Of a stretch of DNA of 36,235 nt, positions 1,994 to 18,514 are shown in pieces (position 1 is the first letter of the stretch; each line of letters starts with the position of its first letter). Under the pieces are notes generated by a model. That model was not told the origin of the DNA. It was given only the letters and a program-made list of their open reading frames with translations, and did not search any database. This DNA is from Candidatus Azambacteria bacterium RIFCSPHIGHO2_02_FULL_52_12 (GTDB taxonomy: Bacteria; Patescibacteriota; Minisyncoccia; GWC2-36-17; WO2-46-25), in the NCBI GenBank assembly GCA_001775835.1, contig MEYP01000006.1:16486-52720 (forward strand). The letters are read 5' to 3'. A program made the translations under genes and the position numbers.

Positions 1994-3214
1994 TCAACTT
2001 CCAAACATGGTTTTATTGATATCACCCAAAGCGTCATACAGCACGCCGATGTCTTTTTTGGTGTTATAGATGTAGGGACTGATGCGGCAGGTCGCCGGAA
2101 CGCCGAGGAATTTGTGCAGGGGCATCGCGCAGTGGTTGCCCGCGCGCACGGCGATGTTTTGTTCATCCAGCAGGGAAGCGATATCGTGCGGATGGATGCC
2201 CTTGAGGTTGAACGCGACCGCGCCGCTTCGGCGCTTCATGTCTGTGGGACCGTAGACAGTCACGCCGGGGACCTGCCGCAATTTTTCCAGAGTGTACTGT
2301 GCAAGCTCTTTTTCATGGCGCTCGATGTTTTTCATGCCGATATGTTCCAGATAATCGACCGCCGCGCCCAAAGCGATGGCCGCTTCGATGGCGGGCGTCC
2401 CCGCTTCGAATTTCGCGGGCGCGTCGGCAAAGACGACGTTCGTTTCCGAAACCGAGCGTATCATCTCGCCGCCGCCCAAAAACGGGGGCAGGGAACCAAG
2501 ATATTTGTCTTTCATGTATAAAACGCCGATGCCGGTCGGCGCGAGCATTTTGTGCCCCGAAAACGCGTAAAAGTCGCAGTCCATCGCCGACACGTCCACG
2601 CTCATGTGCGGCACCGCCTGCGCGCCGTCAATCAGCGCGGGAATCCCGCGCGCGTGGAAAAATGAAACCAGGTCGCGCGCGGGGTTCACGGTGCCAAGCA
2701 CGTTGGAAACATGGGTGAACGCCGCCAATTTCACCTTCTTGGTCGCTTTTGCCACCAGATCTTTGGGGTCCAGCGTTCCGTCGCTTGTGATGCGTACAAA
2801 CCGCAGTTTCAGCTTCTTTTCTTTTGCGACCAGATACCACGGCACGATATTGGAGTGGTGCTCCATGACGGTCAGCAGGATTTCATCGCCCGCTTTCAGA
2901 TGGTGACGCGCGAAGCTCTGCGCCACCAGATTGACGGCCTCGGTCGTATTGCGGGTGAAAATGATGTTTCTCGCACCTTGCGCGCCGATGAAGCGGGCAA
3001 TCTTTGCGCGCGCTTCCTCGTAGTGCTTCGTCGCTTGTTCGCTCATTTCATAAATGCCCCGGTGGATGTTCGCGTTGGTGTTTTCATAATGCTTCACCAG
3101 CGCGTCTATCACCGCCTGCGGCTTTTGCGTCGTTGCGGCGCTGTCCAAATACACCAATTTAGGATTGGCTTTGAAAATAGGGAAGTCTTTTTTAATGGTG
3201 TTTTTGTTTATCAT
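1994..3214 (-). CDS. sufS: Cysteine desulfurase SufS (class V aminotransferase)
   Basis: The 406-aa ORF carries a PLP-lysine context (FSGHKMLAPTGIGVLY), the catalytic Cys loop (RAGNHCAMPL) and HHSNIVPW. Its start overlaps the sufD stop by 4 nt. Confidence 0.93.
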   Translation of the reverse strand: MINKNTIKKDFPIFKANPKLVYLDSAATTQKPQAVIDALVKHYENTNANIHRGIYEMSEQATKHYEEARAKIARFIGAQGARNIIFTRNTTEAVNLVAQSFARHHLKAGDEILLTVMEHHSNIVPWYLVAKEKKLKLRFVRITSDGTLDPKDLVAKATKKVKLAAFTHVSNVLGTVNPARDLVSFFHARGIPALIDGAQAVPHMSVDVSAMDCDFYAFSGHKMLAPTGIGVLYMKDKYLGSLPPFLGGGEMIRSVSETNVVFADAPAKFEAGTPAIEAAIALGAAVDYLEHIGMKNIERHEKELAQYTLEKLRQVPGVTVYGPTDMKRRSGAVAFNLKGIHPHDIASLLDEQNIAVRAGNHCAMPLHKFLGVPATCRISPYIYNTKKDIGVLYDALGDINKTMFGS

Positions 3215-3789
3215 GGCGTCAGAGCGAGAACATTGCTCATATCTTGGAAAAATCCGGCGACGCAGATTTTTTTCGCTTCTTTTTCGGAAAGCCCGCGCGA
3301 CCGCAGGTAAAACAGGTCCTTTGCGCTGACGCGCCCGATGCTCGAGCCGTGGCTTGCCTTCACTTCGTTTTGCAGTATCTCCAGGTCGGGCTTGATGAAC
3401 GCGCGCGCTTGTTCCGAAAGCAAGAGCGCTTTGGCGCCCAGTTTGGCATCGGCGTATTTCGCGCTTTTTTCGATGCGCACCGTGCCGTGAAACGTTACGC
3501 GCGACGAGTCTGCGAGCGCCCCTTTGAAATTCACGTTTGACGCCGTCCCTTCTGCTTTATGGACGATATCAAGCGCGATGTCCGTTTGCATGTCGCCCGA
3601 ACCTTTATATGCCCATAGTATTTCAACGGAGCTTTTTTTGCCCGCGAGCGTGACGGAAAGATGCATCTTTCTGGGCGCGTGCTTCTCAAAAAGAAAAACA
3701 AGGCGCCGCGCTTCGTTCGCTTTCGCAAGGACGATGGCATGCTCGAACGTTTCCGGCAGGGTATTTGAATGAATGGTAATATCTTGCAT
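3211..3789 (-). CDS. sufD: Short SufD-like Fe-S assembly protein (C-terminal half only)
   Basis: The 192-aa ORF matches the SufB/SufD C-terminal region (FHGTVRIEKSAKYADAKLGAKALLLSEQA...EILQNEVKASHGSSIGRVSAKDLFYLRSRGLSEKEAKK). Confidence 0.8.
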   Translation of the reverse strand: MQDITIHSNTLPETFEHAIVLAKANEARRLVFLFEKHAPRKMHLSVTLAGKKSSVEILWAYKGSGDMQTDIALDIVHKAEGTASNVNFKGALADSSRVTFHGTVRIEKSAKYADAKLGAKALLLSEQARAFIKPDLEILQNEVKASHGSSIGRVSAKDLFYLRSRGLSEKEAKKICVAGFFQDMSNVLALTP

Positions 3790-3810: not shown

Positions 3811-3845
3811 TTCTATTTTCTATTTTCTAAATTCTAGCTTCTATG
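3811..3845 (-). repeat. Heptad array (TAGAAnn) x5 in the sufB-sufD spacer
   Basis: The plus strand reads ttctatt ttctatt ttctaaa ttctagc ttctatg. On the mRNA strand this follows the sufB stop directly: TAG-CATAGAA GCTAGAA TTTAGAA AATAGAA AATAGAA. Confidence 0.9.
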
Positions 3846-5243
3846 CTAACCGATCGCGTTCTCCATTTCCATTTCAATGAGACGGTTGAGCTCAAGAGCG
3901 TAGTCGGCGGGGAGTATTTTTGCCAGCGGCTCGAAAAAACCGGCAACGACTAAGGATGCCGCTTCCGTTTCGGAAAACCCGCGCGACTTAAGATAAAAAA
4001 GCTCCTTCTCGCTGATGCGGGACACCGTGGCTTCATGTTCAATCCTGGTATCCTGTTCTTCTATCTTCATGGTCGGATACGTGTCCGAGCGTGACTGCTT
4101 GTCCAGTATGAGGGCGTCGCACCGCACTTTTATCTTGGCGTTTTTCGCGCCTTTCACGACTTGCGCGAGCCCGCGATACGCGGTGCGCCCGCCGCCAAAC
4201 GCGACGGATTTTGAGACGATGTTGGAAGAAGTGTCGGATGCCATATGCACCACTTTCGCGCCCGCGTCCTGGCACTGCCCCTTGCCCGCCAGCGCCACGG
4301 ACAAGATATCCGCCCGCGCGCCCCGTCCGACCAAAAACACCGAAGGGTATTTCATGGTGATCTTCGAGCCCAGGTTGCCGTCTATCCATTCTACAAGCGC
4401 GTTTTCTTCCGCCCGCGCCCGCTTGGTCACCAGATTGTACACGTTGGCAGACCAGTTCTGGATGGTCGTGTAGCGCACCCGGGAGCCCTTCTTTGCGATT
4501 ATCTCCACCACGGCGGCGTGGAGCGCATCGGTGGTGTACACGGGCGCGGTGCACCCTTCAATGTAGTGCACATCGCTGCCCTCGTCGGCGATGATGAGCG
4601 TGCGCTCGAACTGCCCGATATTCTTGGTGTTGATGCGGAAATACGCCTGCAGGGGCATCGCGACCTTCACCCCCTTGGGCACGTAGATGAAACTGCCGCC
4701 CGACCAGCACGCGGAGTTGAGCGCCGCGAATTTGTTGTCGCCGATGGGCACCACCGTCCCGAAGTATTGCCGGAACAGGTCGGGATATTTCTTGAGGGCG
4801 GTGCCCGTGTCGGTGAAGATGATGCCCTGCTTCTCGAGATTTTTCTGGATGTTGTGGTATACCGTTTCGGAGTCGTATTGCGCGCCCACGCCCGCGAAGA
4901 ATTTCCGTTCGGCTTCGGGCACGCCCAGCTTGTCGAATGTTTTTTTGATGTCTTTGGGCACATCCTTCCATTCCCGGGTTTGCGCCCCTTCAGGCTTCGC
5001 GTAGTAGATGATGTTTCCAAAATCGATGGCGGACAGGTCGGGGCCCCACGCGGGCATTTTTTTTGCGTTGAATATCTCAAACGCGCGCACGCGGAAGTCG
5101 CGCATCCACTGCGGGTCGTTCTTCTCCGCCGAAATGCGCTCGACGATCTCGCGGGAAAGTCCGCGTTCGGTCTGATATGCGGGCTTCACGTCGCTGTGAA
5201 ATCCGTATTGGTATTTCGTGCTGGAGGTTGTATTACTGGGCAT
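3846..5243 (-). CDS. sufB: Fe-S cluster assembly protein SufB
   Basis: The 465-aa ORF is SufB-like along its whole length (YGFHSDVKP..., FIYVPKGVKV, ...HEATVSRISEKELFYLKSRGFSETEA). Confidence 0.95.
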   Translation of the reverse strand: MPSNTTSSTKYQYGFHSDVKPAYQTERGLSREIVERISAEKNDPQWMRDFRVRAFEIFNAKKMPAWGPDLSAIDFGNIIYYAKPEGAQTREWKDVPKDIKKTFDKLGVPEAERKFFAGVGAQYDSETVYHNIQKNLEKQGIIFTDTGTALKKYPDLFRQYFGTVVPIGDNKFAALNSACWSGGSFIYVPKGVKVAMPLQAYFRINTKNIGQFERTLIIADEGSDVHYIEGCTAPVYTTDALHAAVVEIIAKKGSRVRYTTIQNWSANVYNLVTKRARAEENALVEWIDGNLGSKITMKYPSVFLVGRGARADILSVALAGKGQCQDAGAKVVHMASDTSSNIVSKSVAFGGGRTAYRGLAQVVKGAKNAKIKVRCDALILDKQSRSDTYPTMKIEEQDTRIEHEATVSRISEKELFYLKSRGFSETEAASLVVAGFFEPLAKILPADYALELNRLIEMEMENAIG

Positions 5244-11385: not shown

Positions 11386-11420
11386 AGCGCCATGACGAAA
11401 TCTGTCGTGGCGCTTTTTTT
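11386..11420 (+). terminator. Intrinsic terminator
   Basis: The 11-bp stem is agcgccatgac / gtcgtggcgct with loop gaaatct, followed by T7. Confidence 0.8.
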
Positions 11421-11421
11421 A

Positions 11422-11450
11422 TTGCAATCATGGGAAAAATTTACTATGAT
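11422..11450 (+). promoter_or_regulatory. alaS promoter (leaderless geometry)
   Basis: TTGCAA (11422-11427), a 17-bp spacer, then TATGAT (11445-11450). The ATG at 11458 is 7 nt after the -10 box. Confidence 0.6.
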
Positions 11451-11457
11451 GGACGCT

Positions 11458-13404
11458 ATGACGACTAATGAAGTACGGCAGAAATTCCTTGAATTCTTCC
11501 GAGAAAAAGGGCATGCCGTCATTCCCTCGGCTCCGCTCGTGCCCGACGACAAAACGGTGCTGTTCGTGACGGCCGGCATGCAACCGCTGGTGCCGTATTT
11601 GATGGGGGAGAGAAAGCACCCGCAGGGCGCGCGGCTTGCCAACTCGCAGAAATGCCTTCGCACGGATGATATTTTAGAAGTGGGGGACAATCGCCACCTC
11701 ACATTCTTTGAAATGCTCGGCAACTGGTCGCTGGGGGACCCGTCCGAACCGGACGCCAGCCCGACAGGGTCATCCGCCCGGCCAGGCCATTCGGACGGGT
11801 TCCGGCGGGGTATCGGCCGGGCGGGCTATTTCAAAAAAGAGTCCATTGCGTGGAGTTTTGAGCTTTTGACGTCAAAAAAATGGTTCGGCATCGATCCCGA
11901 AAAACTGTATGTCACCGTGTTTGAAGGAGATGCGACAATGGGTATCGCGCGCGACGACGAATCTATCGGTTACTGGAAAGAAGCATTCAAAACCGCGGGC
12001 ATAGATGCGAGTTTGGAAAACGGGCGCATTTCCGCCTATCCCAAAAAGAAAAATTGGTGGGAACTTGCCGGGTCGGGACCATGCGGGCCGGATACGGAGA
12101 TTTTCTACGATATGGGAAAAGAACATGACCCGGTATTTGGCGAACAATGCCATGCGAACTGCGACTGCGGGCGGTTTGTGGAAATCTGGAACAATGTGTT
12201 CATGGAATACGAAAAAAAGGCGGACGGTCCGCCGGTTGGCGGAGGTGGATATTCGTATGTACCGCTCGCGCAGAAAAACGTGGATACCGGCATGGGTCTT
12301 GAGCGCATCACGATGGTTTTACAAGGCGTTGAAACGGTATTTGAGATAGATGTTTTTAAAAAAATCATCGGGAGCATAGAGACAAAAAAAGTCCCCTACG
12401 AGAAAGAAGCGCGAAGATATCGCATCATTGCTGATCATCTGCGCGCGGCGGTGTTTCTGATCTCTGACGGCGTTGCACCTTCGAATGTGGAGCGAGGATA
12501 TATTCTGCGCAGTCTTTTGCGGCGTGCAATAGCGCAGGCGAGGATTTTGAATTTGCCGTTGCGTGATTTTCCAGTGAAACCGATTGAAAGAACACGCGAG
12601 TACTATAAAGAAAATTACCGACTTTCCGCGCTGCCGGCGATTATTGATATTGTAAAAAAAGAATTTGACGCGTTTCTGACGGCATTTGAGAAAGGGAGAA
12701 AAGAGGTTTTACGCATTGTCGGGAAAATACCCGAGGGCGGCGTGATACCCGCCAGAGACGCGTTCAATCTTCATCAGACATACGGTTTTCGGATTGAGTT
12801 GATGATTGATCTGGCAAAAGATTCCGGGCATACCGTGGATGAAAAAGGGTTCTGGGAAGAATACAAAAAGCACCAGGAGATTTCCCGCGCGGGATCAGAG
12901 AAAAAATTCGGCGGGCATGGTTTAATGCTGCAGACCGGTGAGCTGAAAGCGGCTGATGAAGAAGAGTTGAAAAAAGTGACGCGCCTGCACACGGCGACGC
13001 ATCTTTTGCAGGCGGCTTTGCGCAGGGTTTTGGGCGACCACGTGCACCAGATGGGTTCGGACATCACGGCAGAACGCCTGCGGTTCGACTTTTCGCACCC
13101 GCAAAAAATGACGGATGAGGAAAAAAAGAAGGTGGAAGAGGTGGTGAATAAGGAAATCCAAAAAGGACACGCGATGACCCATAAGGAAATGCCGATTGAC
13201 GAAGCGGAAAAAACCGGCGCATTGATGTTTCAAAAGGAAAAATACGGGAAAACGGTGAAAGTATATTCGGCCGGAGATTTCTCCAAAGAGCTCTGCGGAG
13301 GACCGCATGTGGCGAACACGAAAGAAGTGGGAACATTCAAAATCCTCAAAGAAGAGGCATCTTCCGCCGGCGTTCGTCGCATCCGCGCAACAGTTGTTGA
13401 TTGA
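11458..13404 (+). CDS. alaS: Alanine--tRNA ligase, short form lacking the C-terminal C-Ala/DHHA1 region
   Basis: The start is moved to MTTNEVRQKFLEFFREKGH because track start 11392 lies inside the terminator stem. The ORF has FEMLGNWSLGD...YFKKE, the editing-domain motifs HTATHLLQAAL and CGGPHV, and ends at ...RRIRATVVD. It is 648 aa. Confidence 0.9.
   Translation: MTTNEVRQKFLEFFREKGHAVIPSAPLVPDDKTVLFVTAGMQPLVPYLMGERKHPQGARLANSQKCLRTDDILEVGDNRHLTFFEMLGNWSLGDPSEPDASPTGSSARPGHSDGFRRGIGRAGYFKKESIAWSFELLTSKKWFGIDPEKLYVTVFEGDATMGIARDDESIGYWKEAFKTAGIDASLENGRISAYPKKKNWWELAGSGPCGPDTEIFYDMGKEHDPVFGEQCHANCDCGRFVEIWNNVFMEYEKKADGPPVGGGGYSYVPLAQKNVDTGMGLERITMVLQGVETVFEIDVFKKIIGSIETKKVPYEKEARRYRIIADHLRAAVFLISDGVAPSNVERGYILRSLLRRAIAQARILNLPLRDFPVKPIERTREYYKENYRLSALPAIIDIVKKEFDAFLTAFEKGRKEVLRIVGKIPEGGVIPARDAFNLHQTYGFRIELMIDLAKDSGHTVDEKGFWEEYKKHQEISRAGSEKKFGGHGLMLQTGELKAADEEELKKVTRLHTATHLLQAALRRVLGDHVHQMGSDITAERLRFDFSHPQKMTDEEKKKVEEVVNKEIQKGHAMTHKEMPIDEAEKTGALMFQKEKYGKTVKVYSAGDFSKELCGGPHVANTKEVGTFKILKEEASSAGVRRIRATVVD
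11740..11826 (+). repeat. 87-bp GC-rich palindromic element translated in-frame within alaS
   Basis: It encodes PSEPDASPTGSSARPGHSDGFRRGIGRAG between the GD and YFK residues. It has interleaved perfect 10-bp inverted repeats at 11739-48 / 11790-99 and 11774-83 / 11815-24. Its core resembles the reverse complement of the 61-bp element at 14011 and 14728. Confidence 0.85.
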
Positions 13405-13426
13405 AGACGCTATAGTGTGGTATATT
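13397..13426 (+). promoter_or_regulatory. hicBA promoter (leaderless geometry)
   Basis: TTGATT (13397-13402), an 18-bp spacer, then TGg-TATATT (13421-13426). The ATG at 13433 is 6 nt after the -10 box. The -35 region overlaps the alaS stop. Confidence 0.55.
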
Positions 13427-13432
13427 TTATCT

Positions 13433-13651
13433 ATGAAACAGGAATTTACAGCGGTCTATAAAAAGAGCGGAAAGTGGTACGTGGGGTGGGTGGAAGAGGT
13501 TTCCGGCGTGAATACGCAGGGGAAAACGCTCAAGGAAACAAAGGAAAATCTCCGCGAGGCGCTTTCTTTGGTGCTTGAGACGAACCGGATGTTGAGCAGA
13601 ATAGACGGGCGTCGGGCGATACGCGAACCGATCAGCGTTTTTGCGCGATGA
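13433..13651 (+). CDS. hicB: HicB-like antitoxin (72 aa)
   Basis: The start is the internal ATG of track ORF 13307..13651. MKQEFTAVYKKSGKWYVGWVEEVSGVNTQGKTLKETKENLREALSL fits the HicB/UPF0150 N-terminal fold pattern. An ATGA overlap couples it to hicA. Confidence 0.7.
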   Translation: MKQEFTAVYKKSGKWYVGWVEEVSGVNTQGKTLKETKENLREALSLVLETNRMLSRIDGRRAIREPISVFAR

Positions 13652-13842
13652 AGCGGGGAGATCTGATTTCGCATCTTGTACGCGAAGGATGCGTATTCAT
13701 CAGGGAGGGCGCTCGCCATAGCGTCTTTTTTAATCCGTTTACCAGGCGGACCTCCACGGTACCGCGGCATACGGAAGTAAATGACTTTCTTGCGCGGAAA
13801 ATTTGCCGCGATTTGGGCGTTGATAATGTGCGGAAAAAGTAG
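13648..13842 (+). CDS. hicA: HicA-family mRNA interferase toxin (64 aa)
   Basis: MKRGDLISHLVREGCVFIREGARHSVFFNP...TVPRHTEVNDFLARKICRDLGV matches the HicA pattern (G-x-H ... VP-x-H). Confidence 0.8.
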   Translation: MKRGDLISHLVREGCVFIREGARHSVFFNPFTRRTSTVPRHTEVNDFLARKICRDLGVDNVRKK

Positions 13843-13863: not shown

Positions 13864-15096
13864 ATGCCTTTCATTGAACGAAAAGAATTTCAAAAATATC
13901 AGGAAACGATCATGGTTGCCGTATACAGTGACAGGGTTTCCGCGTATGCGATAGGGAAAAATGCGGCCGGATACAACATTGTCGCCGGCGCGACCGAAGA
14001 ACAGGAAGAAGCCCGCCTGAACCCCGTCCGAACGGATGTTCATCCGGGCGGGGATCCAATGGTCGGGCAGGGAGAATTAAATACGGGAAAAATAAAACTT
14101 AACTGCCAGAAGGCGCTGCAGCGGCTCCCGCGCGAACACATGAAAAGCGGTATGCCCGTCGTCTTCGCGCTGGGGCCGGGCGCTTCGGAATGCGCTTTTG
14201 TATCGATCGATGCGCGGCGCGAACAGAAAGACGCGATCATTTCCGAAAGCGAAGTGAAGTCCATTATCGAGAGATCGTACGGCCTTAAGGCATCCGAAAG
14301 CGGCAAGGCATCCCTCAATGTTCCCGCGGGTTTTCTTGTGGACGGATTCTCGGTGCCTGACCCCGTCGGTTTGAACGGCCAGAATATCACCGTCAATCTG
14401 GTCAGCGTCAGCGCTTCCCGGGCGCTCGAAGAATCGTTTTCCGACATCGCGTCGTCGTACGGCTTGCGGTATGGCGGCATGGTCAATATATGCGGCATGC
14501 TTGCCGATGCCATGCCGTTATTCACGCAGGATGCCGATTGCGTGGCGATGCTCGTTTTCGAGCGGGAGATCATTCTGGCGCTCGTGCGCGGGAAAAAAAT
14601 ATCCGCCATTGGAAAAGCGGACGGCGGATATGGTATACTAGAACAAGAAGCGGCACGATCGTTTTCGGTAGGAATCGAGGAGGCGAAGAATATTTTGCGC
14701 GCGTTCGAGAAAAAACAGACGGATGCCGCCCGCCTGAACCCCGTCCGAACGGATGTTCATCCGGGCGGGGATCCAATGGTCGGGCAGGCCGTCGCGGAAA
14801 AGATAAACGAGCTGTCCGCGCGCGTCGTTTCCGACATCGCGCGGCGCATCGGATCGGCGCTTCCCAAGCTTGATTTTGAACATCTGATTCCCGCGACATT
14901 CCTGGTTGCGCAGTTCGGAAATCTTTCGCACCTGTCGCAGGCGTTGATCGACAACCCGACCTGGCTTGCCCAGGCGCCGGTCGCGAGAAACGCAGGGGTC
15001 GCGCGCATGAGCCCGCTCAAACAGAACATTCAGGACGACAAAAAAGTGCTCGCGGACGGCGATGCATACATACTAACCGCGCTTATGCGATCATGA
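13864..15096 (+). CDS. FtsA/PilM-like actin-fold protein (degenerate nucleotide-binding motifs)
   Basis: The 410-aa ORF has segments resembling FtsA (VNLVSVSASRALEESFSDIASSYGLRYGGMVNICGMLADA; GGYGILEQEAARSFSVGIEEAKNIL). The phosphate-binding DxGGG-type motifs are not evident. It contains two identical 61-bp inserts. Confidence 0.5.
   Translation: MPFIERKEFQKYQETIMVAVYSDRVSAYAIGKNAAGYNIVAGATEEQEEARLNPVRTDVHPGGDPMVGQGELNTGKIKLNCQKALQRLPREHMKSGMPVVFALGPGASECAFVSIDARREQKDAIISESEVKSIIERSYGLKASESGKASLNVPAGFLVDGFSVPDPVGLNGQNITVNLVSVSASRALEESFSDIASSYGLRYGGMVNICGMLADAMPLFTQDADCVAMLVFEREIILALVRGKKISAIGKADGGYGILEQEAARSFSVGIEEAKNILRAFEKKQTDAARLNPVRTDVHPGGDPMVGQAVAEKINELSARVVSDIARRIGSALPKLDFEHLIPATFLVAQFGNLSHLSQALIDNPTWLAQAPVARNAGVARMSPLKQNIQDDKKVLADGDAYILTALMRS
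14011..14071 (+). repeat. 61-bp GC-rich palindromic element, copy 1 (in-frame)
   Basis: The sequence is gcccgcctgaaccccgtccgaacggatgttcatccgggcggggatccaatggtcgggcagg. It encodes ARLNPVRTDVHPGGDPMVGQ and is identical to 14728-14788. Confidence 0.95.
14728..14788 (+). repeat. 61-bp GC-rich palindromic element, copy 2 (in-frame)
   Basis: It is a perfect copy of 14011-14071, lying 717 bp (239 codons) downstream in the same gene. The flanks are unrelated. Confidence 0.95.
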
Positions 15097-16814
15097 AAAA
15101 AATACTCTACGTACATCCCGACGAAACCATCGCCTATCTCATTGACCGGATGGAAAATACCGATTCGGATACGCTTTTTATCGTCGCGGACGCCAACGCC
15201 GCGCTCTTTATGGATTCGGTGAACCTGAAATTGCTCAAGCGCGAAGCGGACGGATTCCGCAAGCAATGCGTCATCGTTTCCCAAGCCCCGGCTGTTCTCG
15301 CCATGGCGCGCGAGGCCGGGTTTGACACATCGTCGGAAGATATCGCTCCTGAAGAGTCCGGGTACCCGCCCGTACCGAATGAGTACGTTCGGGCGGGCGG
15401 CGTGCAGCATGAAGTACCCAGTTCGACGGATTCGGCGGGCTCACTGCAGGCGGAATCGGAAGAAGAAGTGCCGGTGCATGTCCGGTCCAGCGCTCCCGAG
15501 AGCGGTCTTTCCATGGCTTCCGGGCGTTTTGTTTCGCATGACGCGCCACCCTCCGGCACAGAGGCCGATGAAGAGATGCATTATGAGAACAGCCCCGAAG
15601 AATCCGAAGAAGCGGGAGCGGGTGGTGCGCGCGACTATCGTGACGCCCGAAAAGGGGCGCCCGGCATGCCGCTCAACTGGAAATTCCTTGGCGCGACGCT
15701 CGCGGGGGTGCTTGTCGTCGCTGTCGCCGGTTTCTATCTTTTTTCCCCTAAGCTGTCCGTTTCCATCGTTCCCAAGAAAGAAACGCTGAATTTTGATTTT
15801 CAGGTGGTTGGCGACCTTGCGTTGTCGAGCGTTAATCTGACGAAAGCGCGCATCCCCGGGCAGGTCGTCACCATCGCGCAAGAGCAATCCGATTCGTTTC
15901 CCGCTACGGGAAAACAAGACAAAGAAACCAAGGCGGAAGGGGAGATCGTTATTTACAACGCGTTCGGCGCGGGCATCCAGACGCTGGTGAAAAATACCCG
16001 TTTCAAAGCGAAAGACGGCAAGTTGTTCCGCCTGGTGAGCGCGGTGACGGTTCCCGGCGCGAAGATGGAAGGAGGGAAAGTCGCCACGCCGGGCACGGTG
16101 AACGCGCGCGTTGTGGCAGACCAGCCGGGCGCGGCGTACAATATCGATCCGACTGATTTTTCAATACCCGGATTTCAGGATACTCCCAAGTTCCTCGGTT
16201 TTTACGGGAAATCAACCAAGCCCATGAGCGGAGGCGGTTCAAGCAACGCGCGGTTCGCCACTCGGGAAGATCTGGACAAAGCGAAGGCGGCGCTTTCCGA
16301 TGCTCTTGCCAAAAGCGCCCAAAGCCATGTCGCGTCGCAGATTCCCAAAGGGCTCAAGGCCGTTTCCGAGGCATTCGCACAGGAGGCGCCCCAGTTGACT
16401 CCCGGTTCGGTTGACGCGGACGGGATGTTCAAAGCGACGCTCAAAACGACCTATACCATTTTCGCTTTTTCCGAGAATGATATCATCGCGCTGATAGACC
16501 ATACGGTATCGGGAAGGATCTCGGAACGGCGCAAGGCCATCCCGGAGACGCGCGTTATTTCTTATGTCGATGAAGTCGTCAGTCAGGACAAAAAGTCGTT
16601 CTCGTTTACGGCAAAAATAAGCGAGCTGGTGCTTGGCATCATAGACCACAACGACATGCGGCTCCTGTTGGCGGGCAAAAACGAGTCGGAGATCAGGCAG
16701 ATACTGGGCGCCAATGAATCCATTGAGGGAGCGGAAATAACGTTTTGGCCGTTGTGGGCTTCGGCGGCTCCGGCAAACCCCGACATGATAAAGGTTTTTG
16801 TGGATGAGTCTTGA
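15093..16814 (+). CDS. Single-pass membrane protein with acidic linker and large extracytoplasmic domain, hypothetical
   Basis: The 573-aa ORF is coupled by an ATGA overlap to the FtsA-like gene. It has an N-terminal cytoplasmic domain, a low-complexity E/S/P-rich linker, one TM helix (LGATLAGVLVVAVAGFYLF) and about 350 aa outside. Confidence 0.75.
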   Translation: MKKILYVHPDETIAYLIDRMENTDSDTLFIVADANAALFMDSVNLKLLKREADGFRKQCVIVSQAPAVLAMAREAGFDTSSEDIAPEESGYPPVPNEYVRAGGVQHEVPSSTDSAGSLQAESEEEVPVHVRSSAPESGLSMASGRFVSHDAPPSGTEADEEMHYENSPEESEEAGAGGARDYRDARKGAPGMPLNWKFLGATLAGVLVVAVAGFYLFSPKLSVSIVPKKETLNFDFQVVGDLALSSVNLTKARIPGQVVTIAQEQSDSFPATGKQDKETKAEGEIVIYNAFGAGIQTLVKNTRFKAKDGKLFRLVSAVTVPGAKMEGGKVATPGTVNARVVADQPGAAYNIDPTDFSIPGFQDTPKFLGFYGKSTKPMSGGGSSNARFATREDLDKAKAALSDALAKSAQSHVASQIPKGLKAVSEAFAQEAPQLTPGSVDADGMFKATLKTTYTIFAFSENDIIALIDHTVSGRISERRKAIPETRVISYVDEVVSQDKKSFSFTAKISELVLGIIDHNDMRLLLAGKNESEIRQILGANESIEGAEITFWPLWASAAPANPDMIKVFVDES

Positions 16815-17279: not shown

Positions 17280-17393
17280 ATGAAAATCAGAGCATCCGTA
17301 AAAAAAATATGCGCGAAGTGCAAATCTGTGCGAAGGTTCGGAAGGATCTATGTGCTCTGCGCGAATCCAAAACATAAACAAAGACAGAAATAG
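17280..17393 (+). CDS. rpmJ: 50S ribosomal protein L36
   Basis: This ORF is too short for the ORF track. Hand translation gives [37 protein letters not shown] (37 aa). The stop TAG is the first unit of the heptad array. Confidence 0.9.
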
Positions 17394-17473
17394 AAACTAG
17401 AAATTAGAAAGTAGAATCTAGAACTAAGGAGTCCAAACTTCTATTTTCTAGATTCTAGCTTCTAGATTCCACA
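17391..17473 (+). repeat. Heptad palindrome: (TAGAAnn)x5, a spacer containing AAGGAG, then (TTCTAnn)x4-5
   Basis: The sequence is tagaaac tagaaat tagaaag tagaatc tagaact | aaggagtccaaac | ttctatt ttctaga ttctagc ttctaga ttccaca. For example, tagaatctagaa pairs perfectly with ttctagattcta. Confidence 0.9.
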
Positions 17474-17476
17474 ACT

Positions 17477-17863
17477 ATGCCCAGAATCGCCGGTATAAAC
17501 ATACCCGATAACAAACGAATAGAAATAGCGCTTGCCTATATTTACGGCATCGGCCCGACATTGGGGACGCACATCGTCACCCAGGTTGGCGTCGACCCGA
17601 ACAAGCGGGCCAACAAGCTGACCGCCGAAGAGCTCAACCGCATCAAAGAGTACATCGAAAAGCATTACAAGATAGAAGGGGATCTGAAGCGCGAGATTAT
17701 GCTGAACGTCAAACGGCTGAAAGACATCAAGGCGTATCGTGGCGTTCGGCACATGCGCGGGCTTCCCGTGCGGGGCCAGCGGACCAAAACCAATTCACGA
17801 ACGCGCCGTGGCAACACGAGAAAGACGGCGGGATCGGGAAGGAGATCGGTTGATAAGAAATAA
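17477..17863 (+). CDS. rpsM: 30S ribosomal protein S13
   Basis: The 128-aa ORF begins MPRIAGINIPDNKRIEIALAYIYGIGP and contains YRGVRHMRGLPVRGQRTKTN. Confidence 0.95.
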   Translation: MPRIAGINIPDNKRIEIALAYIYGIGPTLGTHIVTQVGVDPNKRANKLTAEELNRIKEYIEKHYKIEGDLKREIMLNVKRLKDIKAYRGVRHMRGLPVRGQRTKTNSRTRRGNTRKTAGSGRRSVDKK

Positions 17864-17871
17864 GGGCTTTC

Positions 17872-17994
17872 GTCCCCATCAGAATGCTTTTGCTTTGAGC
17901 GTTCTGATGGGGACTGAAAACCTTACCGAAGCACATAACCAATAGTTATGTGCTCGGTGCTCAATGTGAAAGTAAAATTTACTTCGCAGTGAGC
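17872..17994 (+). other. Three tandem stem-loops in the 154-nt rpsM-rpsK spacer (candidate cis-regulatory RNA or processing site)
   Basis: HP1 spans 17872-17914, with a 13-bp perfect stem gtccccatcagaa / ttctgatggggac. HP2 spans 17926-17957, with stems of 9 and 4 bp. HP3 spans 17959-17994 and is imperfect. Confidence 0.6.
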
Positions 17995-18017: not shown

Positions 18018-18473
18018 ATGGGAAAGAAGAAAATAACAACGCAGAACGAAGCGCAGATGTTGAAAGAAACAGGAGCCCTTGAAACGGCGTCTAAGAAAGT
18101 CGCGGCCGCGCCCGCCTCAAGCAAACGTTTCATAAAAAGCGGCAAAGCATACGTGCAGGCGACCTACAACAATACCATCGTATCGTTGACGGATGATGCG
18201 GGCAACGTGCTTGGCTGGGCGTCCGCGGGTTCCATGGGATTTAAAGGAGCGAAAAAATCGACGCCGTTCGCCGCGTCCAAAGTCGTTGAAGCGGTGGTGG
18301 AAAAGGGAAAGAAGGCCGGCATGCAGGATGTCGCGGTTTATGTGAAAGGCATCGGTTCAGGCAGAGAATCGGCCGTCCGGTCCCTCGCTACCCATCTTAA
18401 TCTGTCCAGCATAACGGACGTGACCCCCATCCCGCATAACGGATGCCGGCCGCCGAAAGTCAGGAGAGTATAA
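18018..18473 (+). CDS. rpsK: 30S ribosomal protein S11 (N-terminally extended)
   Basis: The 151-aa ORF contains [18 protein letters not shown] and ends [20 protein letters not shown]. Confidence 0.93.
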
Positions 18474-18514
18474 CAGAAATAGAAACTAGAATTTAGAAAA
18501 TAGAAACTAGAATA
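18473..18514 (+). repeat. Heptad array (TAGAAnn)x5-6 filling the rpsK-rpsD spacer
   Basis: The sequence is acagaaa tagaaac tagaatt tagaaaa tagaaac tagaatATG. The last unit overlaps the rpsD start, and there is no SD. Confidence 0.9.

What the first reader, a model, noticed from the sequence alone, without database searches (positions are those of the whole stretch)
14011..14788. Two 100%-identical 61-bp palindromic inserts, in-frame, 717 bp apart within one FtsA-like gene
Positions 14011-14071 and 14728-14788 are identical (gcccgcctgaaccccgtccgaacggatgttcatccgggcggggatccaatggtcgggcagg), while the flanks share nothing. Each copy adds the same 20 residues (ARLNPVRTDVHPGGDPMVGQ) to the protein.

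The element folds on itself: CCCGCC+TGAAC pairs with GTTCA+(bulge)+GGCGGG, and an inner CCGT/ACGG hairpin sits inside.

Perfect nucleotide identity of short GC-rich segments inside an otherwise unique gene argues for recent mobility, gene conversion or templated repair, not ordinary domain duplication. Together with the alaS copy, this suggests an active coding-sequence-invading element family. It is my best candidate for something undescribed in this window.
Basis: seen in the sequence. Interest (0 to 1): 0.85.

Follow-up and report, generated by a model that had tools for sequence, protein, structure and literature searches.

The report
Tiny mobile hairpins inside protein genes
Two identical 60-base GC-rich hairpin sequences, plus two related ones nearby, were inserted in frame into working genes of a tiny groundwater bacterium; they belong to a widespread family of miniature repeats, a known kind of selfish DNA but in an unusually small, stackable form.

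Summary
An identical 61-mer lies at 14011-14071 and 14728-14788, in frame, in an FtsA/PilM-fold gene of a Candidatus Azambacteria (CPR) genome.

Both copies are true 60-nt insertions. A 66%-identical orthologue lacks both precisely, and a 97%-identical protein lacks only the second. At least 17 contigs from many samples carry both, so it is not an assembly artefact.

The window holds two more family members. One is an 87-nt insert in alaS (11740-11826), with no counterpart in solved AlaRS. The other is a 33-nt insert in the next gene (15366-15398), absent from the orthologue.

The shared unit is a ~30-nt GC-rich imperfect hairpin (GCCCGCCCGG-loop-TTCGGACGGGC) whose stem covaries. It occurs in over 100 places in CPR, Bacteroidota and Planctomycetota genomes. 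Most copies are intergenic, but some sit in frame inside LigA, UvrD, LeuRS, Fmt and other proteins. Units of ~30, ~60 and ~90 nt look like hairpins nested in hairpin loops.

There is no Rfam family, no consistent target duplication and no recurrent neighbouring transposase.

The kind is known: Rickettsia palindromic elements and intragenic REPs. This family fails their defining tags and was not found in the literature I could search. How it moves is inferred, not shown.

The parts
14011..14070 (+). Insert 1: a 60-nt two-layer hairpin element in the FtsA/PilM-like gene, encoding ARLNPVRTDVHPGGDPMVGQ (aa 50-69). The core hairpin, in the model's orientation, lies on the - strand at 14017-14057.
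   Evidence: Exact repeat. Precise 60-nt gap in L001 at GAAGAA|GG. Absent from P0003, P0004 and P0005, present in P0002. Covariance model R1 scores 52.6 bits, E = 2.8e-10. Coincides with the low-confidence coil at residues 50-70 of the AlphaFold model.
14728..14787 (+). Insert 2: an identical 60-nt two-layer element 717 nt downstream, in the same orientation and frame (aa 290-309). The core lies on the - strand at 14734-14774.
   Evidence: Exact repeat. Precise gap in L001 at GCC|GCC. Absent from the 97%-identical P0002 (TDA|VVAEK) and from P0003, P0004 and P0005. R1 scores 52.6 bits. Part of the insert (residues 291-305) is a low-confidence coil that interrupts a long helix, 271-336.
11740..11826 (+). 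An 87-nt three-layer element in alaS, encoding PSEPDASPTGSSARPGHSDGFRRGIGRAG between the conserved GD and YFK. The inner core lies on the + strand at 11768-11805, opposite to its orientation in inserts 1 and 2.
   Evidence: Local alignment to the reverse complement of the 61-mer scores 42 against a null maximum of 29. R1 scores 47.8 bits, E = 3.8e-9. Solved AlaRS chains align up to ...GNFSFGD and resume at YFK, leaving this segment with no counterpart. A second allele on L006 has only a 33-nt hairpin here. Near-identical three-layer units occur in L137/L147, L142 and L133; L134 and L138 share the inner two layers but have a more diverged outer layer.
15366..15398 (+). A 33-nt single-layer hairpin in the next gene (15093-16814), encoding PPVPNEYVRAG. 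Its arms, CCCGCCCGTACCGAA...GTACGTTCGGGCGGG, match the outermost layer of the three-layer elements.
   Evidence: R1 scores 17.8 bits, E = 0.05. Precise 11-aa, 33-nt gap in the L001 orthologue. Arm identity with the outer layers of L137 and L142. Folds at -28 kcal/mol.
13864..15096 (+). Host gene of inserts 1 and 2: an actin-fold ATPase of the FtsA/PilM type (410 aa, or 394 aa from the alternative start at 13912).
   Evidence: Weak Pfam SHS2_FTSA match. PDB profile search gives FtsA at E = 0.16. AlphaFold model has pLDDT 66 and pTM 0.67. Foldseek top hits are FtsA and PilM at E about 1e-13.
11392..13404 (+). alaS (alanyl-tRNA synthetase), host of the 87-nt element. Other gene callers start it at 11446.
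   Evidence: Pfam tRNA-synt_2c at 4.7e-117 and tRNA_SAD. PDB AlaRS at E about 1e-48.
15093..16814 (+). A 573-aa protein of unknown function, host of the 33-nt element.
   Evidence: ORF list. The L001 orthologue is 561 aa and its N-terminal ~200 aa are 62% identical.

Best explanation
The two 61-mers are copies of a small non-autonomous repeat, a GC-rich imperfect DNA hairpin, that inserted into a working gene and is tolerated there. Its ~30-nt building block has an outer stem GCCCG/CGGGC, a bulged A, CC/GG, a bulged TTC, then CGG-X/X'-CCG closing a short loop. The block spreads on its own, as a ~60-nt two-layer unit (the form in this finding) and as a ~90-nt three-layer unit (the alaS form). 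The larger forms look like one hairpin lodged in the loop of another.

Shown: the inserts are gains relative to orthologues. They are polymorphic between near-identical strains. The family is dispersed over several phyla. The stem is kept by compensatory changes. Insertions leave no consistent target duplication. All four window copies have lengths that are multiples of three, are free of stops in the frame used, and leave the ORFs intact. For the two copies in the FtsA-like gene, the inserted segment coincides wholly or partly with a low-confidence coil of the structure model.

Inferred: copies land anywhere, and in a gene-dense CPR genome mostly in genes. Selection then keeps only insertions of 3n length without stops at structurally tolerant positions, where they are translated into Gly/Pro/Arg-rich loops.

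Inferred with low confidence (about 0.3): movement goes through the folded single strand and is catalysed in trans by a hairpin-recognising enzyme of the HUH/Y1 type, as proposed for REPs. The second copy in this gene was most likely templated from the first or from an identical master copy, after the split from the P0002 strain.
For: Empty sites: (L001/P0003 lacks inserts 1, 2 and the 33-nt copy; P0002 lacks only insert 2). AlaRS structures lack the alaS segment. Not an artefact: at least 17 contigs from many samples carry P0001, and 24 contigs were read for the neighbouring S4 gene, all 8 shown places that span the host gene having the 394/410-aa form. Family: over 118 stretches in GTDB genomes for a 21-base pattern, where I estimate about 4 by chance, with non-specified positions also conserved. 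Two- and three-layer units recur in metagenomes. Structure conservation: the anchored inner stem averages 2.30 bp against 0.41 +/- 0.11 in shuffles; 92.5% of cells are paired against 87.9%, with 56 double-sided changes against 22.5, and 0 of 500 shuffles reach either value; pair 8-39 is GC 33 / AU 17 / GU 17 / CG 4 and pair 18-25 is AU 30 / CG 29. In-frame copies in unrelated proteins: LigA, UvrD_C, LeuRS, Fmt, HATPase_c, UPF0029 and a HI0933-like protein; an IcmF-like mutase in two genomes was identified by eye only. Low-confidence coils of the model overlap the inserts: residues 50-70 cover insert 1 and residues 291-305 lie within insert 2. Nesting: the window's 33-nt copy equals the outer layer of L137/L142 with an empty loop. 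No described RNA family matches.
Against: No mobilising enzyme was identified. No protein family recurs next to copies in about 120 loci, and I could not survey whole genomes. I saw no transposition event directly; polarity rests on parsimony, and precise excision in P0002 is not excluded. P0002's DNA could not be retrieved, so the strain-level junction is known only at protein level. In an unbiased set, flanks of core copies are only marginally more complementary than controls (p about 0.05), so loop-targeted nesting is a property of a subfamily, not a general rule. Wobble and mismatch positions do not single out one folding strand. The census within this genome covers only about 51 kb of about 0.94 Mb. 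Near-invariance of the core across phyla was partly imposed by my search pattern.
Confidence: 0.78

Rival explanations
1. The second copy was not transposed. It was written into the gene by local templated repair or gene conversion, such as microhomology-mediated template switching that used copy 1, 717 nt upstream on the same strand, as the template.
For: The copies are 100% identical, in the same orientation and frame, in the same gene, and only copy 2 is missing from the 97%-identical P0002. The junctions show 1-3 nt of identity with the target (G at site 1, GCC at site 2) and no consistent duplication.
Against: This cannot explain how the family spread to four sites in three genes here and to over 100 loci in several phyla. 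Flanks share no homology that could prime conversion. It is a possible mechanism for this one event and is compatible with the main explanation.
Confidence: 0.3
2. The hairpins are kept because they do something for the host. They might act as RNA or DNA signals (terminator, mRNA stabiliser, protein-binding site, translational pause), or the inserted loops might benefit the proteins.
For: The stem covaries, so the fold is under selection of some kind. About 100 of 126 copies elsewhere did not lie well inside a long ORF, and some are followed by T runs. REPs have such proposed roles (PMC3733652).
Against: Coding copies occur in both orientations and in different frames, giving unrelated peptides: RPNGSSGR, RPDDPFGRVS, NPVRTDVHPGG, PSER. 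That argues against a protein-level role. Sites are empty in close relatives. Selection on the fold is equally expected for a hairpin that must be recognised in order to move.
Confidence: 0.1
3. The inserts are intervening sequences, intron-like or intein-like, removed from the RNA or the protein, so the mature proteins are unaffected.
For: They are strongly structured and interrupt essential genes such as alaS.
Against: All measured insert lengths are multiples of three (60, 60, 87, 33) and free of stops in the frame used. Splicing would not require that. At 11-29 aa they are far too small for an intein. No Rfam intron or ribozyme family matches.
Confidence: 0.03
4. One copy is an assembly artefact, from repeat collapse or a chimeric join.
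For: Contigs of some assemblies break at or inside the alaS element, and one scaffold (L006) has a run of N and a chimeric allele there.
Against: Both copies in the FtsA-like gene are present, identical and in frame on every contig recovered that spans the gene, from ENA, JGI and NCBI assemblies that, by contig naming, come from at least two pipelines. The ORF is intact.
Confidence: 0.02
5. The inserts arose by ordinary internal duplication, or are ancient conserved segments of the protein family.
For: None beyond the repetition itself.
Against: Orthologues at 66% and about 33% identity lack both segments, and one at 97% lacks the second. Flanks share nothing. The same element occurs in unrelated genes.
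Confidence: 0.01

Closest known systems
Rickettsia palindromic elements (RPEs; Ogata et al. 2000, as summarised in PMC10969869 and PMC3733652)
   Same: Palindromic, non-autonomous repeats inserted in frame into many unrelated housekeeping genes of a small genome. They are translated as extra peptide segments at positions compatible with the fold, sometimes twice in one ORF, and have no known dedicated transposase.
   Different: RPEs are about 100-150 bp, are restricted to Rickettsia (with analogues in Wolbachia), and according to Di Nocera et al. end in a CGTC tag. The present units are 30-90 nt, G+C-rich and modular or nested. Their core is shared by CPR, Bacteroidota and Planctomycetota.
REP / REPIN elements with RAYT transposases; GTAG- and CGTC-tagged palindromes (PMC3733652, PMC3116915)
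   Same: 20-40-nt G+C-rich imperfect palindromes with conserved irregularities. They are dispersed, mostly extragenic but sometimes intragenic, encoding 20-30 aa. They combine into larger hairpins and are proposed to move as single-stranded hairpins without target duplication.
   Different: The core has no terminal GTAG or CGTC tag (a CGTC lies inside the stem). The stem does not begin with A-T pairs, and there is no CCA tail. No RAYT was found next to copies. REP dimers sit side by side in inverted orientation (REPINs) rather than one inside the loop of another. REP families are usually specific to a species or genus.
Small dispersed repeats (SDR) of heterocystous cyanobacteria (Elhai et al. 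2008, Genome Res 18:1484). Cited from memory and from the reference list of PMC3116915; the paper itself is not held.
   Same: Very small (21-27 nt) mobile repeats, some of them hairpins, reported inside larger conserved contexts and inside one another, with an unknown means of movement.
   Different: Different sequences and a different phylum. I could not re-read the paper, so the comparison rests on memory.
GC clusters of yeast mitochondria and double-hairpin elements of Allomyces and chytrid mitochondria (from my own knowledge)
   Same: Short G+C-rich hairpin elements in A+T-richer genomes that insert into coding regions in frame and are polymorphic between strains.
   Different: These are organellar, with unrelated sequences; no link to bacteria is known.
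Bacterial MITEs (Correia, Nezha, ERIC, QMITE; PMC10969869, PMC5896051)
   Same: Non-autonomous, dispersed, able to create in-frame fusions.
   Different: MITEs are usually over 100 bp, with terminal inverted repeats matching a parent IS and with target-site duplications. None of this is seen here.

Membership tests
Rickettsia palindromic elements (RPE) | Palindromic repeat inserted in frame into unrelated protein genes, absent from orthologues | tested here: met
   Four in-frame inserts in three genes. Three have precise empty sites in an orthologue or near-identical strain, and the alaS insert has no counterpart in solved AlaRS. In-frame copies also occur in LigA, UvrD, LeuRS, Fmt and other proteins elsewhere.
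Rickettsia palindromic elements (RPE) | Sequence membership in RPE-1 to RPE-10, size about 100-150 bp, Rickettsia host | tested here: not met
   Units are 30-90 nt in a Candidatus Azambacteria genome. The core sequence is shared with Bacteroidota, CPR and Planctomycetota. I did not align directly to RPE consensus sequences, which were not available.
CGTC- or GTAG-tagged REPs (Di Nocera et al. 2013) | Conserved CGTC or GTAG tetranucleotide at one end of the palindrome | tested here: not met
   Alignment A5 shows no GTAG. CGTC occurs only inside the stem (GCC-CGTC-CGAAC on the complementary strand), not at an end.
CGTC- or GTAG-tagged REPs (Di Nocera et al. 2013) | 8-9-bp stem starting with A-T pairs, 4-5-nt loop, short CCA-like tail (CGTC families) | tested here: not met
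   The stem begins GCCCG/CGGGC, is 11-12 bp long with two bulges, and no CCA tail is conserved.
REP/REPIN-RAYT system | G+C-rich imperfect palindrome kept by compensatory change, dispersed in many copies | tested here: met
REP/REPIN-RAYT system | Cognate RAYT (Y1/HUH) gene flanked by the repeats in the same genome | tested here: inconclusive
   No recurrent protein family lies within about 4 kb of copies in about 120 loci, and no transposase appears among the called genes of the window region. Whole genomes could not be searched.
MITE (DDE-transposase derived) | Terminal inverted repeats plus target-site duplication of fixed length | tested here: not met
   Junctions are GAAGAA|...|GGAGAA, GATGCC|...|GCCGTC and GGGTAC|...|GGCGTG, with only 1-3 nt of incidental identity and no constant duplication.
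IS200/IS605-derived palindrome-associated elements | Insertion 3' of a fixed tetra- or pentanucleotide, without duplication | tested here: inconclusive
   The absence of duplication fits. The four known left flanks (…GAAGAA, …GATGCC, …GGGTAC, …GGGGAC) share no motif, but four sites of three sub-forms are too few to judge.
Described structured RNA (Rfam) | Match to a curated covariance model at its gathering score | tested here: not met
   No hit at the elements in the window or nine loci. The best sub-threshold hit is mraW RNA at 20 bits against a gathering score of 50, on both strands.
Intein or self-splicing intron | Size and motifs sufficient for self-excision | tested here: not met
   The inserts are 11-29 aa or 33-87 nt. 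No intron or ribozyme family matches. Lengths are all 3n and the frames are open.
FtsA/PilM actin-fold ATPases (host gene label) | Actin-like fold with an SHS2 (1C-type) subdomain | tested here: met
   Foldseek top hits are FtsA and PilM at E about 1e-13. Sequence-level support is weak: Pfam SHS2_FTSA is below its cutoff and the PDB profile gives E = 0.16. FtsA and PilM cannot be told apart.

The most novel reading that the evidence does not exclude
A single ~30-nt G+C-rich hairpin, nearly invariant in sequence from CPR bacteria to Bacteroidota and Planctomycetota, is an ultra-small mobile element of an undescribed class. It would have no element-encoded or neighbouring transposase, no tag and no target duplication. 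It would grow by lodging in the loops of its own copies (30, then 60, then 90 nt), and would be actively colonising essential genes of minimal CPR genomes. That implies either a mobilising activity shared across phyla or a host replication/repair route that copies hairpins into new sites.
Probability: 0.25. Interest if true: 0.8.

Novelty: new variant of a known kind. Interest (0 to 1): 0.6.

Why it matters
In-frame colonisation of genes by palindromic repeats has been a curiosity of Rickettsia and a few REP-rich bacteria. Here the same process appears in a candidate-phyla-radiation genome of about 1 Mb, in essential genes (alaS and an FtsA/PilM-type gene), with a strain-level presence/absence difference that marks it as recent.

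The building block is among the smallest repeat units reported to spread, and its core is shared across distant phyla. That poses a sharp question: what recognises and copies a 30-nt hairpin in organisms with so few enzymes?

On the practical side, such inserts add 10-30 residues to conserved proteins, break metagenome assemblies at the repeat (seen here at alaS), and can mislead alignment, phylogeny and domain annotation of CPR proteins. Cultivated carriers (Pinibacter aurantiacus, Daejeonella, Pedobacter superstes) make the question open to experiment.

Tried and rejected
- **Rfam.** The gathering-threshold search of the window and nine loci, and the permissive search of the element, found nothing relevant.
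- **Literature by sequence.** Searching for the 10-mers returned only unrelated primers. Keyword searches found the known kinds but not this family. The Elhai 2008 paper is not held.
- **P0002 DNA.** This is the strain with the empty second site. It is not on record, and a look-up through the neighbouring S4 gene returned only assemblies with both inserts.
- **Protein-database census.** A query made of the four open translations of the 60-mer returned 'no candidate', even though P0001 contains one of them twice. This is a limit of the word index, not a negative result.
- **Neighbouring mobilising enzyme.** All-against-all BLAST of 1,748 flank ORFs found no recurrent transposase-like family. 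A YraN-like protein in 4 loci is within chance.
- **Viral, plasmid and phage carriers.** There were 2 hits in 2.9 million viral contigs, and none in the plasmid or phage collections.
- **General loop-targeting.** I tested whether core copies always sit at the tip of a larger hairpin. The enrichment seen at first came largely from loci chosen with an upstream-arm pattern. In the unbiased set it is marginal (p about 0.05), so I claim nesting only for the two- and three-layer subfamily.
- **Considered from the sequence and rejected.** Integron attC sites (no RYYYAAC/GTTRRRY boxes), CRISPR repeats (whole units repeat, with no spacers), tRNA T-arm mimicry (loop one base short) and twister-type ribozymes (no Rfam match).
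- **alaS in L001.** Its upstream gene is not alaS, so it offers no comparison at that site.
Full report
**1. The observation**

None of 100 composition-preserving shuffles gave a match. Identity ends abruptly on both sides. The copies are 717 nt (239 codons) apart inside one ORF, 13864-15096, and both are read as ARLNPVRTDVHPGGDPMVGQ. The element is 69% G+C in a 52% G+C window and folds well on either strand: -31.9 and -34.5 kcal/mol, z = -2.6 and -3.8.

**2. Are they insertions, and are they real?**

A search of the protein database found five relatives of the host protein. In the alignment:
- P0001 is the same protein.
- P0002 (97% identical in the aligned part, 390 aa) carries the first 20-aa segment but has a precise gap at the second (…KKQTDA|VVAEK…).
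- P0003 (66%, 370 aa) and two proteins at about 33% identity lack both.

The DNA of P0003 (locus L001, GCA_964448905.1, with the same downstream gene order) shows clean 60-nt gaps at both places. These are GAACAGGAAGAA|GG… and …GCC|GCC…. So the inserted length is 60 nt, and one G of the 61 identical bases belongs to the target.

There is no consistent target-site duplication, only 1 nt (G) and 3 nt (GCC) of junction identity. Parsimony puts insert 1 after the split from the L001 lineage and insert 2 after the split from the P0002 strain. Precise loss in P0002 cannot be excluded.

The gene with both inserts was found on at least 17 contigs from many ENA, JGI and NCBI samples, assembled by at least two pipelines judging from contig names. 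All 11 retrieved contigs spanning both sites carry both copies identically. Every further place recovered through the S4 gene that spans the host gene has the 394/410-aa form with both inserts. An assembly artefact is therefore very unlikely.

The organism is a candidate-phyla-radiation bacterium, Candidatus Azambacteria (RIFCSPHIGHO2_02_FULL_52_12 and related Rifle aquifer assemblies). The longest scaffold is 941 kb.

**3. The host gene**

Sequence evidence for 'FtsA-like' is weak. The Pfam SHS2_FTSA match is below its cutoff, and a PDB profile search gives FtsA at E = 0.16. An AlphaFold model (pLDDT 66, pTM 0.67) matches FtsA and PilM structures best, at E about 1e-13. The label therefore holds at the level of fold.

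In the model, the low-confidence coils at residues 50-70 and 291-305 overlap the two inserts (aa 50-69 and 290-309). Insert 1 follows the third strand of the first subdomain. Insert 2 interrupts a long helix (271-336).

**4. More copies in the window**

*The alaS copy.* The segment in alaS is a diverged copy (about 75% identity) in the opposite orientation, scoring 42 against a null maximum of 29. The whole alaS insert is 87 nt (11740-11826; 29 aa) between the conserved GD and YFK. Solved AlaRS chains align up to …GNFSFGD and resume at YFK. A second allele on scaffold L006 has only a 33-nt hairpin at that exact site (GD-PASPDGLGEAG-YFK). Several assemblies break inside this element.

*A fourth copy.* A covariance model of the core (R1) was run without filters over 88 kb: the window, two flanking loci and L001. 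It recovered the three copies at 48-53 bits and found a fourth at 17.8 bits (15360-15403). This is a 33-nt in-frame insert (15366-15398, PPVPNEYVRAG) in the next gene, precisely absent from the L001 orthologue.

*Density.* The window thus has four in-frame inserts in three neighbouring genes. No copy was found in the roughly 15 kb beyond the window.

**5. The family**

A pattern made from the blocks shared by the 61-mer and the alaS copy has 21 specified bases, and I estimate about four chance hits for it.

Carriers include:
- many CPR lineages (Nomura-, Uhr-, Wolfe-, Taylor- and Campbellbacteria, Saccharibacteria, Paceibacterota);
- Bacteroidota (Chitinophagaceae, Sphingobacterium, Pedobacter, Daejeonella, Flavipsychrobacter, and the isolate Pinibacter aurantiacus);
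- Scalindua and other Planctomycetota.

Many of these genomes have 30-45% G+C. Hits in very G+C-rich genomes are probably chance.

Positions not fixed by the pattern are also conserved or covary. The region between the arms forms CGG-X…X'-CCG, with X/X' being A/T, AT/AT, AC/GT, C/G or CC/GG. The mean anchored stem is 2.30 bp, against 0.41 +/- 0.11 after shuffling. On an 85-sequence alignment:
- the structure GCCCG/CGGGC, bulged A, CC/GG, bulged TTC, CGG-X/X'-CCG has 92.5% of cells paired against 87.9%;
- there are 56 double-sided changes against 22.5, and 0 of 500 shuffles reach either value;
- the outermost pair is GC 33, AU 17, GU 17, CG 4.

The hairpin is therefore under selection as a fold. 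Wobble and mismatch positions do not single out one strand.

**6. Position of copies**

About 100 of the 126 copies in other genomes did not lie well inside a long ORF by a crude stop-to-stop test, so most appear to be intergenic. About a dozen lie inside long ORFs of low-G+C genomes, in frame. Pfam places the following within or adjacent to recognised domains:
- the LigA adenylation domain;
- UvrD_C;
- the LeuRS anticodon-binding domain;
- Fmt;
- HATPase_c, in a histidine kinase that carries two copies in opposite orientations;
- UPF0029;
- a HI0933-like flavoprotein, in a Planctomycetota MAG, whose two-layer copy encodes NPVRTDVHPGGDRKVGQ, nearly the window's peptide.

An IcmF-like mutase is hit in two genomes in opposite orientations; I identified that host by eye and did not run it through Pfam.

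Depending on orientation and frame, the core is read as RPNG(S)SGR, RPD..FGRVS, NPVRTD… or PSER…. This argues against a selected peptide function.

**7. Layers**

A scan of metagenome contigs for the two-layer form gave 18 loci. Two-layer units close to the window's 60-mer occur in L141, L145 and L058. Three-layer units of about 90 nt, close to the alaS insert, occur in L137/L147, L142 and L133; L134 and L138 share the inner two layers but have a more diverged outer layer.

The window's fourth copy reads CCCGCCCGTACCGAA-TGAG-TACGTTCGGGCGGG. L142 reads CCCGCCCGTACCGAA-CG[60-nt two-layer unit]-TACGTTCGGGCGGG. This is the same hairpin with and without a passenger in its loop.

In many Bacteroidota copies the core also sits in the loop of an unrelated hairpin (GAGATTGC|core|TTCG…GCAATGAC). 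But when tested on the unbiased genome-scan loci, flanks of the core are only marginally more complementary than controls (p about 0.05). The stronger signal came from loci selected with an upstream arm. Nesting is therefore a feature of a subfamily, not a rule.

**8. What moves it?**

- No Rfam family matches.
- No protein family recurs within about 4 kb of copies in about 120 loci.
- No transposase is among the called genes around the window.
- Viruses, plasmids and phages are not notable carriers.

The anatomy is an imperfect hairpin with conserved bulges, no terminal inverted repeats beyond the stem itself, no target duplication and dispersal in both orientations. This is what is described for REP-type elements, thought to be handled as single-stranded hairpins by HUH/Y1 transposases (PMC3733652, PMC3116915). 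I commit to that as the most likely route but give it only about 0.3.

Templated copying during repair or replication is the main alternative for the individual event that created copy 2. That copy is identical to copy 1, on the same strand, in the same frame and 717 nt away.

What is shown is gain, strain polymorphism, dispersal and fold conservation. The enzyme and the intermediate are inferred.

**9. Comparison with what is known**

In-frame palindromic repeats in genes are known. Rickettsia RPEs integrated into dozens of unrelated genes and encode conserved peptides (PMC10969869). Di Nocera et al. (PMC3733652):
- describe GTAG- and CGTC-tagged REPs inside coding regions that encode 20-30 aa, sometimes twice in one ORF;
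- note many such copies in replication and repair genes;
- report that CGTC REPs lack a dedicated transposase.

The present family works like these but fails their membership tests. It has no terminal GTAG or CGTC tag (a CGTC is internal), a stem that starts G-C rather than A-T, and no CCA tail. It is not a MITE in the DDE sense, having no TIR/TSD signature.

Cyanobacterial small dispersed repeats (Elhai 2008; recalled from memory, paper not held) and mitochondrial GC clusters and double-hairpin elements (own knowledge) are further analogues.

Four features seem distinctive:
- the very small module;
- stacking into 60- and 90-nt units that then propagate as units;
- a near-invariant core across distant phyla, partly imposed by my pattern;
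- occurrence in minimal CPR genomes.

I found no description of this family in the searchable literature. That literature is incomplete.

**10. Verdict**

It is a recent, in-frame double insertion of a miniature palindromic repeat. The repeat belongs to a widespread family that also sits in alaS and in the next gene.

The phenomenon is a new variant of a known kind, not a new category. Interest is moderate to high (0.6), because of the cross-phylum core, the nesting and the open question of how it is mobilised. The most novel reading that remains possible is an ultra-small, self-nesting mobile hairpin with no element-encoded enzyme; I put it at about 0.25.

Noticed in passing
window 13307-13842: A HicB-like (UPF0150) and HicA toxin-antitoxin pair lies between alaS and the FtsA-like gene (Pfam). 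The gene upstream of the host gene in sibling species L001 is not alaS, so gene order differs there.
   Followed up: partly
window 17370-17476, 18473-18512 and 3811-3844: A+T-rich repeats built on TAGAAA-like units (e.g. ACAGAAATAGAAACTAGAAATTAGAAAGTAGAATCTAGAA) occur as direct and inverted copies in intergenic spacers (families D1, D9, I1, I4, I5). From the gene coordinates, 17370-17476 lies between rpsM and rpsK, 18473-18512 lies between rpsK and rpsD, and 3811-3844 lies between the two SufB/D-like genes. This is a second, unrelated repeat family, possibly promoter or terminator related.
   Followed up: no
window 30154-30198 and 30793-30837: Two 45-nt direct repeats (96% identical) flank the 185-aa PaaX_M-like gene at 30219-30776. 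Each contains an inverted repeat (TCGTACACAA...TTGTGTACGA). They look like paired operator sites or the ends of a small cassette.
   Followed up: no
window 17861-17925: A 28-nt-arm inverted repeat (82% complementary, 9-nt spacer) lies just upstream of the S11 gene. It could be a ribosomal-protein leader or a terminator hairpin (I12).
   Followed up: no
L006:1190-1300, and the ends of L007 and L010: Metagenome assemblies break or mis-join at the alaS element. L006 has a run of N followed by a diverged alaS allele carrying a shorter 33-nt hairpin. L007 starts inside the element with G-rich errors. L010 starts at its end. This is a practical sign that the repeat disturbs assembly, and that alleles differ in the population.
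   Followed up: partly
L064:2458-3345 (Flavipsychrobacter MAG) and L032:5435-5557 (Prolixibacteraceae MAG): The core also occurs in tandem arrays. L064 has seven pattern matches in a run at a ~106-nt period, where the whole unit is conserved, so it is not CRISPR-like; relaxing the pattern finds up to nine. L032 has four head-to-tail cores at a 28-nt period.
   Followed up: partly
L017, L042, L053, L055, L067, L080, L083, L107, L109, L111, L114, L125, L129: In Sphingobacteriaceae (Sphingobacterium, Pedobacter, Daejeonella) one core copy sits at an apparently orthologous intergenic site with conserved flanks (...attaaatcatgatcgC-core-CTTCatcacctttaaaaaacaataaataaacggatgaaa). A copy can therefore be retained across genera, or this copy has acquired a local function.
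   Followed up: no
L014, L048, L059 (two copies), L112 (Candidatus Uhrbacteria): The core is embedded in a longer repeat with at least 40 nt of conserved flank on each side, present several times in one genome and lying within ORFs (…SPTRPALCPFGRVSPF…). This may be a larger element or a paralogous gene family carrying the hairpin.
   Followed up: no
window 3274-3487 versus 3960-4173: Direct similarity at a 686-nt offset (families D7 and D8) overlaps the two adjacent SufB/D-like genes (3211-3789 and 3846-5243, both SUFBD_core). I read it as paralogy and an ordinary feature, but did not test that.
   Followed up: no
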